The notes under the pieces are model-generated. The model did not search any database. It had not been told where the DNA came from and was given only the letters and a program-made list of their open reading frames with translations. The translations under genes and the position numbers were made by a program. 64,000 nucleotides of DNA, taken from Eledone cirrhosa (taxonomy: Eukaryota). Below, one piece after another: positions 13,187 to 42,072 of this stretch. The stretch spans positions 2,356,001 through 2,420,000 of the forward strand of contig OZ024749.1 of the NCBI GenBank assembly GCA_964016885.1, in the 5' to 3' direction. Every line of letters begins with the position of its first letter. Within the stretch, counting starts at the first letter, position 1.

Positions 13187-13423
13187 GGAGAGAGTTTAAC
13201 CCCGACGGCAGAGCTCAAGCCGTTTCGACGGCTATTTCTGGACTAAATTAGAATTTTTATTTACCACGCTAAAAATTCTAATTTAGTCTCGAAAAAGCCG
13301 TCGAAACGGCTTGAGCTCTGCCGTCGGGGTTAAACCTTTTCCTATTACCCACTCTACTACTCTGAGAATTGAGTACTCTGGTGCGTTATGGTCCATCTGG
13401 TTTCTTACAACACCTCCTTCGTT
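13187..13423 (+). mobile_element. fold-back element family A (half-HHR palindrome plus tail)
   Basis: Palindrome 13187-13342 with GAAACGGC-ttgagctct-GCCGTC; tail actctactac...attgagtactctgg; TA on both sides. Confidence 0.85.
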
Positions 13424-13849
13424 ATATATATATATATAAATGGAATAGAACGAAACGAAATTTCAGTTCTCACTCTTAATACGGCACTTACTTATATACA
13501 TACATTCATACATACATATATATAGTCTTCGATGTTTCTTCTCAACCGAAATACCCAAGTCGCCGATTCCTGACTATACCAAGATTATGGTAAGGCTATT
13601 ACAATAAAAAGACACTCCACCCATGTAAATACAATGAACTAATGAATCTAGTGCGGTGTCCCTTCATAAAACTCTTAGGCAAATAAACGTGGCTACATTT
13701 CATGTATATAGACTCACACACACACACACACACACACACACACACACACACACACACACACACACACACACACACACACACACACACACACACACACACA
13801 CAGACACACACACACACACACACACACACACATATATATATATATATAT

Positions 13850-13935
13850 CACGATGGATACAGTAAAAACCTGTTAGACCATTACACCCCAGAGGAGTAC
13901 TCAATCCCTGGTGTAGTAAAGAATGGTTATATGAA
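13850..13935 (-). mobile_element. tail remnant related to family A
   Basis: Minus strand ...tactacaccagggattgagtactcctctgg...taatggtc... ending at (TA)n. Confidence 0.5.
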
Positions 13936-14316
13936 TGAGTCAGGACGCCAACGTCTAAACTCTAGCTGTTGAAACAACATGATCGCAGCCGGCGGTGTAC
14001 CGACTCTTTCATATTAGATAGATATATAGACAGAGAGATAGATATATAGAATGCTTCAGTAATGCACAGGGGTTAGTTGTATTAGCAATTATTCTCATTT
14101 TCTCATGATATATTCTTAGGAGTCTTTCAGAGTTGTGTCCAATTGTATGAAGATATATTATTGAGTTTTTAAGTATCATCTTGTTATACGTTACTTAGTC
14201 TTATCCACTCCTATCTACAGAACACTTGCCTCAGTAAACAATTCTACACACTCAGCTATGCACTTTTACTTATACACATAATTACCTATATATACACACA
14301 TTTACACACACACACA

Positions 14317-14425
14317 TCTATCTATCTATCTATCTATCTATCTATCTATCTATCTATCTATCTATCTATCTATCTATCTATCTATCTATCTATCCATCTA
14401 TCTATCTATCTATCTATCTATCTAT
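14317..14425. repeat. (TCTA)n microsatellite
   Basis: Direct inspection. Confidence 0.97.
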
Positions 14426-14889
14426 TGTTATACTTGGGAAGGATCATATTTGTGTAATATTGCCAGAATTAATAACATATATATATGTTAATAATTATAT
14501 ATATATATACATGAATTATCATCAATATATATATGACTTTAGACCAGCAGACCACATCCCCAGCATATACAATGTATCTCTCTCTCTCTCTCTCTCTCTC
14601 TCTCTCTATATATATATATATATATATATATATATATATATATATATGTATGTGTGTGTGTGTGTGTGTCGGCGCGCGGTCCTGTGTGCGTGACTGGCTG
14701 GAAGACAGTGTCTACTCTTCAAGAAGCTAAAACATGTTTCTAAATCTACACAGAGCATCACAACTGCTCTCAATATTGTAATGTTGGAAATGTATGCCAC
14801 TATATTACTCTTTAATTATCCCTTATCTATTCATGTATTCAAAAAATTATCTCAAAATTTTTGTGAATATAATTAAATATTTGGCCTTC

Positions 14890-15325
14890 CTTTCTCTCTC
14901 ACTCTATCTCTCTCACTCTCTCCCACTCTCTCAGTCTCTCTCACGCTTCATTTCTCTCTCTTCCATTCTCTCTCTCACTCTCTCTCATTCTCGCACTCTT
15001 CATTTCTCTCACTCTCTCACACTCGATCACTCTCTCACTCTCTCTCATTCTCGCACTCTCTCTCACTCTTCATCTCTCATTCTCTCTCACTCTCTCTCAT
15101 TCTTTCTCACTCTTCATTTCTCTCACTCTCTCACACTCGCTCACTCTCTCACTCTCTCTTACTCTCTCTCACTCTCTCACTATCTCTCACTCTCTCACTC
15201 TTCATCTCTCTCTCTCTCTCACTCTTCATCTCTCTCTCTCAATCTTCATCTCTCTCTCTCAATCTCTCTCACTCTCTCACTCTCTCTCACTCTTCATTTC
15301 TCTCTCTCTCTCTCTATCTCTCACT
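14890..15325. repeat. CT-rich compound repeat (tctcac units)
   Basis: Direct inspection. Confidence 0.9.
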
Positions 15326-38179: not shown

Positions 38180-39770
38180 GAACACCACAACCAACACCAC
38201 CATCAAGACTACCACCAACACTACCACTAACACCAACACCACCACTAACACCACCACCAACGCCACACATCAGCACCACACTCAACACCACCATCAACAT
38301 CCCCATCAACACCACCAACACCTCAATCATCAACACTACCAACACCACCACCAACACCAGCACCACCTACACCACCACCAACTCCAACACCAACACCACC
38401 ACCAACACCACCATCGATACCACCACCAACACCACCACCAACACCACCACCAACACCACCATCAACACCACCATTAACACCACCACCAACACCACGAACA
38501 ACACCACCATCAACACTACCACCAACACCACCATCAACACCACCACCAACACCACCATCAACACCAATACCAACATCACCACCAACACCACCACCAACAC
38601 CACCACCAACACCACCATCAACACCACTACCAACACCACCACCAACACCACCACTAACACCACCATTAACACTACCACCAACACCACCATCAACACCACC
38701 ACCAACACCACCATCAACACCACTACCAACACCACCACCAACACCACCATCAACACCACTACCAACACCACCACCAACACCACCACCAACACCACCACCA
38801 ACACCACCACCAACACCACCACCAACACCACCATCAACACCACCATCAACACCACCACCAACACCACCATCAACACCACCACCACCAACACCACCAACAA
38901 CACCACCAACACCACCACCAACACCACCACCAACACCACCACCAACACCACCATCAACACCACCATCAACACCACCACCAACACCATCAACACCACCATC
39001 AACACCACCATCAGCACCACCACCAACACCACCACCAACACCACCATCAACACCACCACCAACACCACCACCAGCACCACCATCAACACCACCATCAACA
39101 CCACCACCAACGCCACCACCCACACCACCAACACCACCATCAACACCACCAACAACACCACCACCAACACCACCACCAACACCACCACCAACACCACCAC
39201 CACCAACACCACCACCAACACCACCACCAACACCACCACCAACACCAACACCAACACCACCACCAACACCACCACCAACACCACCATCAACACCACCATC
39301 AACACCACCACCAACACCACCACCACCACCAACACCACCACCAACACCACCACCAACACCACCACCAACACCACCACCAACACCAACACCACCACCAACA
39401 CCACCACCAACACTACCACCAACACCACCACCAACACCACCACCAACACCACCACCACACCACCACCAACACCACCACCAACACCACCACCAACACCAAC
39501 ACCAACACCACCACCAACACCAACACCAACACCACCACCAACACCACCACCAACACCACCACCAACACCACCATCAACACCAACACCAACACCAACACCA
39601 CCACCAACACCACCACCAACACCACCACCAACACCACCACCAACACCACCACCAACACCACCACCAACACCACCACCAACACCACCACCAACACCAACAC
39701 CAACACCACCACCAACACCACCACCAACACCACCATCAACACCACCACCAACACCAACACCAACACTAAC
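38180..39770. repeat. (CACCACCAACAC)-type 12-bp/CAC repeat, about 1.6 kb
   Basis: Source of the GGGV and VVVL pseudo-ORFs. Confidence 0.97.
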
Positions 39771-41267
39771 AACAAAGCAAAGTTAAGAATGGCAGCAATC
39801 GTTACAACTCCACTCCACGCAAACGCTAAAGTCACGAGCGTACACATACATACACACAACACACACACACATGCACACATACAGAGAGAGAGAGAGAGAG
39901 AGAGAGAGAGAGAGAGAGAGAGAGAGAGAGTAGCAGAATCGAGAAAGATGTATTGAATATACGAATTATTGGTAAACTAGAAATTAGAAGAGTAATAACC
40001 AAAATACCCTATATTATGTTTGTTTTGGGGTGGGTGGGGTGTATGTTCCTGCGTGTGTGGGGGGTGGGGTATTCATGTGTGTGTTGAGTGGATCGGGGGG
40101 GTATGTTCGTGTGTGTGTGGGGGGGGGGGTATATTTGTGTGTGTGGAGAGAGAGATAGCAAGAGCAGGCATGCGCGGTCATTACTGTGGATGAATGTTTG
40201 GTGGAAGTAGTTGTAAATATTTCGTAAAAAAAGAATTTCCAGAATCTAGTTAAAAACTACATTAAACGGGGAAAAAAATAAAAAATAAACAACAGTAGAA
40301 ACACAAAACAAACAAACAAAAAGCGATAGACGTAAATGGCTACATTATACGGGTATCAGTATTTGTAGGCAGACACACACAGGCGCACATACACACACAC
40401 AAATACACACACACTCATACGCACGCACACACGCGCGCACACACACACACACATCGTTAAAACATATCTACGCAAAAGCAATCGTCATCCCGACCATTAC
40501 AATAAAAGGACACCCACACGCATGTATATATATATATATATGTTTGTGTATGTGTGTTTGTGTGTATGTGTGTGTTCGCGTGTGTGTGCAGAACATTAAC
40601 ACCATATGGGAAGAATAGAATGCGAAGGCGAAATCATGAAAGCAATCAAACTAGTAAAGAATCTCCCCTGAAGAATGCTGAAGAGGAATATATACTTCTT
40701 GGAGGAAAGATTACTTTCCACGACATAATCACCAAATAAATTAACTCGAAGAAACCAACAAAAGAATAATAGAACGGAAGACGGAAACCAGAATAAGAAG
40801 CTATGTCTGCTAGCTTGAAAGATGGCTTCCTTTTCTTGAAATCCGGGTTGAAATTAATGCAGAATGGAGTTCTTGCCTATGGAAGAAACGCTAAGAAAAT
40901 TGAAGACCTATAGTTTTTGATCGTCCGAGGAAATTCCATCTAAGACATTTGGAGACAATCGAGATGAGTTAGATGTGTAATTTGGTCGAAATTCTATTAA
41001 TCATAACTCTCCAGGAAAAATACTTGAATAATTAATCTCACTTGTTTTTTTTTTTGTGGTGGGAAGGAGTTCCATATGTGTATAAACACGCACACATATG
41101 TATATATATATAACGGCATTCCTGTCTTAACGACATCACCACTTTCTCCGCTTGGCCTGTTTTTCCCCCCTTTTGGAACTTTTCCCCCGTTGATGGGCGT
41201 GAGCCCGAAATATTGGGATTAAAATCTCTACTACGGTAACCCTTCTACCTTTGTTTTGTTTTCATCT

Positions 41268-41373
41268 TTGTCTCTCTCAACTTTCACTTTCACCTGTTTT
41301 TCCTATCTATATTTCACTTCCTACCTCGAGATTTCCCTTTGCATTGTTGTGGCTTTCTTAAATACGTATTTTT
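41268..41373 (+). repeat. dispersed repeat, near-identical to 62287-62411
   Basis: cctttgttttgttttcatctttgtctctctc...cttaaatacgtatttttt shared; both close to (TA)n. Confidence 0.75.
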
Positions 41374-41528
41374 ACACATTTCACAATGCTTCAAGCAAAC
41401 TTTAACATCCTCTTATATATATATATATATATATATATATATACATGTGTGTGTGTGTGTGTGTGTGAGTGTTATGGTTTGCATGAAGTAGGTGGGTGAT
41501 ATATATATATATATATACAGTTTATACG

Positions 41529-41586
41529 TGTCCAGAAATAGCCTTCGAAACGGCTTGAGCTCTGCCGTCGGGGTCATACTTTTTCC
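41529..41586 (+). mobile_element. family A single arm
   Basis: gtccagaaatagcc.tcgaaacggcttgagctctgccgtcggggtcatacttttcc(TA)n. Confidence 0.75.
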
Positions 41587-41605
41587 TATATATATATATA
41601 TATAT

Positions 41606-42072
41606 AGTTGTTATATAGTAAGGTGCATTATTGGTTGTGTAAAATGTTCCAATAACTTTATGTTAGCAATATTAAGTTCTCCACGCTTTTGTATATCTCC
41701 AATTCCATTCAAGGGAACAGCTAGATGATGTAAAACGGGGTATATGTATCAAAATGAAAACCCGAAGGCAAGGTAAAATTCCAATCATTTAATCACGTCA
41801 CATGTTTCAATAAGAGATAGATCGATTGTGAAGCCATGATCGTTTATCACTGATCTCATCAGGTGAAAATGAATTGTCTTCAAATTCTTGATATGAGGGA
41901 GAAAAAATAACGATGTTCTCCCTCATATCAAGAATTTGAAGGCAATTCATTTTCACCTGATGAGATCAATGATAAACGATCATGGCTTCACAATCGATCT
42001 ATCTCTTATTGAAACATGTGTCGTGATTAAATGATTGGAATTTTACCTTGCCTTCGGATTTTCATTTTGATA
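41606..42072 (-). mobile_element. fold-back element, about 157-bp arms (41747-41903 / 41916-42072)
   Basis: Inverted repeat with an HHR in each arm; putative tail at left ending in (TA)n. Confidence 0.8.
41953..42026 (+). ncRNA. type I hammerhead; mirror 41793-41866 (-) has GAC at the cleavage triplet
   Basis: tcac CTGATGA ... GAAAC ATGT GTC gtga. Confidence 0.78.

What the first reader, a model, noticed from the sequence alone, without database searches (positions are those of the whole stretch)
13187..42072. Fold-back arms appear to be made anew at each insertion
Seen: in family A, each copy's two arms share private variants (13187 gtttaacc/ggttaaac; 18491 tatgacc/ggtcata; 19095 ggaacgagtaggac/gtcctactcgttcc), and the turn-around point differs between copies. 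Other families fold with 1-12 nt loops at different offsets (22450, 30725, 33812, 41910). Inference: the nascent cDNA snaps back and self-primes, copying itself back toward the tail, so each insertion is a palindrome carrying ribozymes on both strands. Known: Penelope insertions often have inverted 5' pLTRs.
Basis: partly seen in the sequence, partly recalled or inferred. Interest (0 to 1): 0.75.

Follow-up and report, generated by a model that had tools for sequence, protein, structure and literature searches.

The report
Penelope stubs built from two copies
These DNA hairpins are short head-to-head stubs of Penelope-type jumping genes, likely built afresh at each insertion from two separately primed DNA copies that likely stop at the start of the element's RNA, rather than from one copy folding back, which offers a testable route to this class's long-unexplained inverted ends.

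Summary
The fold-backs are real. They are 5'-truncated insertions of Hydra-type Penelope-like retroelements in (TA)n: two head-to-head arms, a ~76-nt tail on one arm only. That layout is published. 'Made at each insertion' holds: in a 1.064-Mb sample chosen without regard to junctions, 41 of 50 tail-bearing family-A copies have an inverted partner, all 41 junctions differ, and arms do not sort by side. The cited variants are subfamily markers, not private. Snap-back of the tail-primed cDNA fits only 7 of 41 junctions; in 20 the tail-less arm is 10 nt or more longer, and in 7 the arms do not overlap. Later deletion is not excluded (size-matched control 9 vs 4, p=0.27). No family-A copy among the 41 carries a whole hammerhead on both strands. 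Best model (0.6): both target strands prime cDNA at two fixed RNA sites; the copies run to a likely capped RNA start and are end-joined. Self-priming was proposed in 2013; I found no two-primer model in print. This scan already reached the two-primer and RNA-start reading on other DNA of this genome.

The parts
13184..13424 (+). Family A insertion: tail-less inverted arm 13184-13259, tail-bearing arm from about 13256 to 13345, tail 13346-13424; (TA)n both sides. Junction has about 4 shared bases; compatible with snap-back or with joining of two cDNAs
18488..18681 (+). Family A insertion: tail-less arm 18488-18549 is 12 nt longer than the tail-bearing arm (18550-18602); tail 18603-18681. Not producible by snap-back of the tail-primed cDNA alone
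19013..19197 (-). Family A (subfamily A2) insertion: tail 19013-19091, tail-bearing arm 19092-19138, tail-less arm 19138-19197 is 13 nt longer; same junction in 20 of the search-derived loci (search seeded with that junction)
35544..35749 (+). Family A insertion; both arms reach the likely RNA start; 18-nt templated duplication at the junction; tail has an internal deletion
35767..35919 (-). Family A insertion whose tail arm stops at +7, with a 20-25-nt templated patch before the tail-less arm
41530..41589 (+). Solo tail-less family A arm ending at the inner site, directly on (TA)n
22333..22668 (+). Family B fold-back with about 100-nt one-sided tail; hammerhead motif found on + strand only; link to a coding parent weak (1 of 20 loci)
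30656..30858 (+). Family C fold-back with one-sided tail; turns 1-4 nt inside the likely RNA start, which has a TATA box 30 nt upstream in long copies
33647..34066 (+). Family D fold-back (young family), tail 33979-34066; complete hammerhead motif in both arms; tail-less arm 6 nt longer; in 4 of 30 loci the tail runs on towards an RT frame
41603..42075 (-). Family E fold-back; tail 41603-41746; turns at a 5-bp hairpin already present in the parent sequence, so compatible with snap-back

Best explanation
The fold-backs are stub insertions of Hydra-type Penelope-like retroelements in (TA)n, likely made by paired (twin) priming rather than by one cDNA folding back. Shown in sequence: two fixed outer ends about 76 nt apart (inner site 0, outer site +76), one arm from each, variable inner junctions, both arms from one subfamily, inner ends piled at -54 to -68. 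Inferred steps: (1) the element protein cuts both strands of a (TA)n target; (2) each 3' end primes cDNA, one at the inner and one at the outer site, probably on the same RNA; (3) on transcripts that begin at the pLTR promoter both cDNAs run to the capped 5' end about 61 nt above the inner site, the outer one often stalling earlier behind the inner one; (4) the two cDNA ends are joined with 0-6 shared bases, small insertions or short snap-back patches and filled in. Priming at the 3' pLTR would give the long inverted-plus-ORF copies.
For: End pairing: of 46 tail-less arms in the blind sample, 42 have a tail-bearing partner, 0 a tail-less partner, 4 none; 40 abut a TA repeat. 37 of 41 inverted arms end at 0 to +2. 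Tail-less arm longer by 10 nt or more in 20 of 41, tail arm in 4 (p=0.0015); arms do not overlap in 7 of 41, yet their tail-less arms end at the usual place (median -61 vs -62). Solo arms of either kind exist. Same haplotype class in both arms in 82 of 102, shuffled mean 25; clear subfamily call agrees in 91 of 93 callable pairs, the two exceptions rest on one base each. RNA start: 31 of 41 tail-less arms end in -68..-54, 4 pass it. An extra G precedes the A at -61 in 11 of 51 stopping arms and 0 of 66 continuing arms (p=5e-5; 7 of the 11 not explained by the partner arm). In family C a TATA box starts 30 nt above the matching A; G precedes it in 5 of 9 stopping and 0 of 15 continuing arms. 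Untemplated G is the accepted mark of a copied cap (PMC4859970, passages). In vitro, an anole Penelope-like protein cuts and extends both strands and starts at two RNA sites that bound the tail; a dimer is predicted (PMC11167929). Long copies L123 and L118 show inverted tail-bearing copy plus ORF plus pLTR ending at 0.
Against: Size-matched control for later deletion is not significant: tail arm shorter by 10-45 nt in 9, tail-less arm in 4, p=0.27 (11 vs 5, p=0.21 with flanking copies). 17 of 41 junctions are symmetric within 9 nt and do not discriminate. In searched loci of D, C and B the asymmetry is weak or reversed (6:6, 9:5, 2:5, ascertained sets). Most stopping arms show no extra G (26 T, 11 C, 3 A of 51). 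No RNA data support the start site. Windows copies at 22450, 33812 and 41910 turn inside the pLTR, not at an identified start. One both-tail insertion exists (L039). Same-RNA origin is not separable from same-source RNAs or later conversion.
Confidence: 0.6

Rival explanations
1. Snap-back as the main route: the tail-primed cDNA folds back, copies itself to the inner site and is joined there; later deletions at the hairpin tip blur the junctions.
For: 7 of 41 junctions fit directly; 13187 and 41910 turn at 4-5-bp pre-existing hairpins; two B loci turn at a 14-nt palindrome; templated patches at 35544 and 35767; deletion control not significant; the 45179-46404 palindrome looks like a true copy-back.
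Against: 20 of 41 need the template to lie ahead of the primer; 7 have no overlap; solo tail-less arms sit directly on (TA)n; copying back would have to stop at exactly 0 in 35 of 41; an extra G also appears at the inner end of tail-less arms.
Confidence: 0.15
2. Self-priming on an antisense RNA or a free hairpin, later cut and inserted by the endonuclease, which leaves the tail on one arm (hypothesis of Arkhipova et al. 2013; resolution idea in Craig et al. 2021).
For: Predicts the tail-less (template) arm to be the longer one, the commoner case (28 vs 10).
Against: Does not cover tail arms that are much longer (4 of 41 by 10 nt or more; L116, L124); non-overlapping cases need 60-95-nt loops closed by 0-4 bases; the pile-up with an extra G at a sense-strand start points to a sense template; target-primed synthesis was seen in vitro (PMC11167929).
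Confidence: 0.1
3. One cDNA-extended end is duplicated by host replication/fusion or repair, or arms are homogenised later by conversion.
For: Fold-backs and inverted duplications at LINE-1 ends are explained this way (10.1101/2024.12.14.628481, passages).
Against: Would duplicate flank and tail symmetrically; here arms end at two element-defined sites and diverge 5.6-7.5% within copies.
Confidence: 0.08
4. Fixed palindromic masters (MITE-like or retrotransposed whole) spread the fold-backs.
For: One A2 junction recurs in 20 of the 74 search-derived fold-backs.
Against: That search contained the junction; in the blind sample it is 1 of 41 and all 41 differ; no side-biased column in 34 unseeded copies (two nominal ones in the 102 mixed set); one-sided tail; coding parent found.
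Confidence: 0.07

Closest known systems
Hydra clade of C-terminal-endonuclease Penelope-like elements (Craig et al. 2021, PMC8557442; passages, section 11, supplement look-ups)
   Same: Inverted 5'-truncated copy, tail at one end, (TA)n target, hammerhead in pLTR, motifs DKT, CxCX5C, CxxC/CxH, no CCHH.
   Different: Tail about 76 nt (60-145 in the other families) against 30-40 nt; RWR for RWK; two family-A motifs were not found in the supplement text (that text may not hold all consensus sequences); the paper leaves the mechanism open.
Anole Poseidon element PAc in vitro (Frangieh et al. 2024, PMC11167929; main text read, supplements not seen)
   Same: Both strands cut and extended, AT-rich target, two internal start sites that bound the tail, ribozyme cut not needed.
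   Different: Different clade; in the parts read it does not explain the inverted copies or pair the two start sites within one insertion.
Self-priming hypothesis for Penelope palindromes (Arkhipova et al. 2013, PMC3846280; parts 1-3 of 5 and passages)
   Different: Proposes an antisense template from a few copies; junction geometry here favours two target-primed cDNAs on a sense RNA.
LINE-1 twin priming (Ostertag and Kazazian 2001; seen only as cited in PMC4859970 and 10.1101/2024.12.14.628481, passages)
   Same: Two target strands each prime a cDNA; inversion with a small-indel junction.
   Different: In LINE-1 (recalled) the second primer lands at a variable upstream site and the cDNAs do not overlap; here both sites are fixed and close, so the same stretch is copied twice.
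PLE hammerheads (Cervera and de la Pena 2014, PMC4209133; passages)
   Same: Type I motifs in pLTRs, U3-A8 core variant, pairs on opposite strands 100-700 bp apart.
   Different: Family A stubs keep only the 3' half of the motif.

Membership tests
Endonuclease-bearing Penelope-like element | pLTR-ORF-pLTR with inverted truncated copy and one-sided tail | tested here: met
   L123 (pLTR both sides of the ORF) and L118; stubs
Endonuclease-bearing Penelope-like element | RT followed by C-terminal GIY-YIG-type endonuclease | tested here: inconclusive
   Motifs seen in broken natural frames (YRDD, YIGLT); Pfam gave no relevant hit for 5 of 5 pieces, PDB none
Endonuclease-bearing Penelope-like element | Type I hammerhead in the pLTR | tested here: met
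   Long family-A copy folds into the three-way junction with U3-A8 core at -106 and predicted cut at -20; my strict descriptor missed it (internal loop in stem II) and the A2 copy folded otherwise; activity untested
Endonuclease-bearing Penelope-like element | Target-site duplication | not testable with these tools
   Targets are (TA)n; no empty site recovered
Hydra clade | CxCX5C linker | tested here: met
   L123; also in loci of B, C, D
Hydra clade | DKT in place of DKG; RWK motif | tested here: met
   DKT in L123; RWR variant in L123 and L118
Hydra clade | CCHH absent; CxxC and CxH around the conserved E and N | tested here: met
   L117, L118, L125 by inspection
Hydra clade | N-terminal GxKF/Y not conserved | tested here: inconclusive
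   A GIKF occurs at L123:3281; position not aligned to other clades
Hydra clade | Under 3 kb, inserts in (TA)n | tested here: met
   Coding span about 2.2 kb in L123; 40 of 46 tail-less arms abut TA
Hydra clade | Groups with Hydra RTs in a tree | not tested
   No reference sequences at hand
Neptune clade | CX2-5CxxC linker and CCHH | tested here: not met
MITE / terminal-inverted-repeat DNA transposon | Symmetric termini and invariant centre | tested here: not met
Non-LTR retrozyme | Tandem units each with a complete hammerhead | tested here: not met
   Family A stubs are single and lack the core; only the unit at 45363 is tandem elsewhere

The most novel reading that the evidence does not exclude
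Penelope-like elements integrate by obligate paired priming: a protein dimer holds one RNA, starts two cDNAs at two fixed sites from the two cut target strands, and both run off the capped 5' end. The tail is the spacing of the two sites, the inverted pLTR is the second cDNA, and over 100,000 family-A stubs in this genome record it. The promoter sits inside stem II of the hammerhead, so the promoter-born RNA would be uncleavable.
Probability: 0.45. Interest if true: 0.7.

Novelty: new member of a known kind. Interest (0 to 1): 0.42.

Why it matters
How Penelope-like elements make their inverted ends and one-sided tail is stated as open in Craig et al. 2021, and self-priming has been the standing guess since 2013. 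Junction geometry in these stubs separates the models and gives direct predictions for the existing in vitro system. Family A alone extrapolates to roughly 130,000-140,000 tail-bearing copies (50 in 1.064 Mb), most of them hairpins, a likely large source of double-stranded RNA; Penelope repeats are heavily edited in lizard (PMC5625713, passages). The structure itself is known, and the mechanism is inferred from old genomic copies only.

Tried and rejected
Rfam found nothing in the window at gathering scores. The repeat finder was swamped by (TA)n. My first reading of a hammerhead core at the 18491 junction was wrong: those letters arise at the junction; the parent's core is at -106. My first clade guess, Neptune, failed the motif test. 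The first cap-G test was circular and was redone. Outer ends of -54 for family D are an artefact of an internal TA run; one search gives +5. The tail-arm limit of the 13184 copy (-101) is over-extended, about -91 by eye; its class is unchanged. Shared rare variants exceed a within-class shuffle (54 vs 20) but are mostly unmodelled subfamily sites, so I do not use them as proof of one template molecule. BLASTP to another Penelope-type ORF in L112 was not significant. No RNA holder listed. Two read lay-ons gave no empty site; the second stretch turned out to begin inside the element's tail, and repeats dominated both. Rows dropped before counts: identical contexts, L072 (duplicate of L071), the three window copies in the search loci, and copies whose arms did not span -45..-2 (102 kept). 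Homology, structure and complex tools were not used.
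Full report
Setting. The window is G000:C9:2,356,001-2,420,000 of a 3.0-Gb genome rich in (TA)n. Coordinates for family A: 0 is the point where the tail-less arm meets (TA)n, +76 the end of the tail, negative numbers run towards the element's 5' end.

Observation. All seven cited fold-backs exist and three tested fold far better than shuffles. They are not full palindromes. One arm carries a family-specific tail; the other ends at a fixed point. The window holds three more family-A pieces (35544, 35767, 41530). 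The three quoted variants are in both arms but mark subfamilies: both arms of 6, 30 and 25 of 102 copies, and long copies such as L057 and L060.

Identity. Following long copies led to L123 (inverted tail-bearing copy, pLTR, broken ORF, pLTR ending at 0) and L118 (same, without a full 5' pLTR). Their frames show RWR, DKT, YRDD, CxCX5C, YIGLT, CxxCxE and CxH and lack CCHH, the description of the Hydra clade (PMC8557442 section 11). Pfam and PDB gave no useful hit, and no tree was built, so the clade call rests on motifs. Loci of families D (9 of 30), C (4 of 30), E (3 of 20) and B (1 of 20) carry related coding sequence within 1.6 kb; in four D loci the RT frame follows the tail in sense. The layout matches Figure 2 of Craig et al. 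2021.

Are the arms made per insertion? I took 1.064 Mb without regard to junctions: the window, 200 kb around it and eight 100-kb stretches on other contigs. Of 50 tail-bearing copies, 41 have an adjacent inverted arm, 37 of these end at 0 to +2, and all 41 junctions differ. Over positions -45..-2, arms of one copy differ by 0.075; arms of different copies by 0.173-0.178 whichever sides are compared; no column is side-biased (34 unseeded copies). One junction recurs in 20 loci, but only in a search seeded with it.

Snap-back or two primers? A target-primed cDNA that starts at +76 and folds back can only copy what it already holds, so the tail-less arm must nest inside the tail arm. That fits 7 of 41 junctions. 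The tail-less arm is longer by 10 nt or more in 20, the tail arm in 4; in 7 the arms share nothing, the tail arm stopping at +1 to +42 while the tail-less arm reaches its usual limit. Of 46 tail-less arms, 42 pair with a tail arm, none with a tail-less arm, 4 stand alone; so position 0 behaves as a start, and the two starts are used together. Of the seven cited copies, 18491, 19095, 30725 and 33812 have the longer tail-less arm, 22450 is nearly symmetric, and 13187 and 41910 fit either model. Against my reading: a size-matched control for later deletion is not significant (9 vs 4, p=0.27), 17 of 41 junctions are uninformative, and searched loci of D, C and B show weak or reversed asymmetry. 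Templated patches at some junctions (35544, 35767) suggest brief snap-back during joining. Independent support: the anole protein cuts and extends both strands and starts at two sites bounding the tail (PMC11167929).

Why the turning points cluster. This lead came from earlier notes of the scan and I tested it. 31 of 41 tail-less and 21 of 41 tail arms end in -68..-54, at an initiator-like TTAGT/TCAGT with a TATA-like run 31 nt above its A (consensus motifs recalled). An extra G precedes that A in 11 of 51 stopping arms and 0 of 66 continuing arms. Family C is cleaner: TATAAATA at -30, G in 5 of 9 stopping and 0 of 15 continuing arms. Untemplated G is read as a copied cap in LINE-1 and SVA. 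The start is inferred; it has not been seen in RNA.

Ribozymes. The family-A parent folds as a type I hammerhead with a U3-A8 core at -106 and a predicted cut at -20 (variant known). The likely RNA start lies inside its stem II, so most stubs keep only the 3' half: 2 of 41 have the whole motif in one arm, none in both. A descriptor found complete motifs on both strands for D and for 45363, on one strand for B, E and 3988, and none for C, whose core is visible by eye.

Known and new. Inverted truncated copies, tails, (TA)n targets, opposite-strand hammerhead pairs and the self-priming hypothesis are published. I found no paper applying twin priming to Penelope-like elements in searches; the library lacks most subscription journals. 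Several earlier notes of this scan reached the two-primer and RNA-start reading on other DNA of this genome; they are not independent evidence. Papers seen: PMC11167929 parts 1-2 of 4; PMC8557442 passages, section 11, two supplement look-ups; PMC3846280 parts 1-3 of 5 and passages; PMC4209133, PMC5625713, PMC4859970 and 10.1101/2024.12.14.628481 passages; 10.64898/2026.07.22.740005 part 1 of 5.

Verdict. Real feature; new families of a known kind; 'made anew' about 0.85; paired priming 0.6; snap-back as main route 0.15; interest 0.42.

Noticed in passing
window 45179-46404: Palindrome with 428-bp arms (4 mismatches, 8-nt loop, hammerhead motif on both strands) whose duplication runs through the (TA)n into 178 bp of flanking repeat at 100% identity, with no one-sided tail: it looks like a true copy-back event. 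A short-read contig bridges the right end (X1 record 8); the whole was not spanned, so an assembly artefact is not excluded.
   Followed up: partly
G000:C4:250,000,001-250,002,431 (L161): The unit of the 45363 palindrome occurs as a 592-bp tandem array with an inverted part, like a non-LTR retrozyme.
   Followed up: partly
   Followed up: partly
window 26581-26624: 12 bp of flank are inverted around an (AT)n run, a small duplication that may come from hairpin priming in the microsatellite.
   Followed up: no
window 43648-44763 and 44609-45361: Two related elements with inverted ends and an internal 33-bp tandem array, each holding a piece of a SINE-like repeat.
   Followed up: no
window 60564-60972: Two copies of an abundant ~200-bp SINE-like repeat in inverted orientation (82% identical), probably independent insertions.
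   Followed up: no
L254, L258, L264: Family D variant with the same tail and ribozyme 3' half but a different upstream sequence, also forming fold-backs.
   Followed up: no
L112:1865-3859: 665-aa open frame of a different Penelope-type RT beside a family A insertion.
   Followed up: no
window 49775-50778 and 57168-58191: 1-kb inverted pair at 79% identity, not examined.
   Followed up: no
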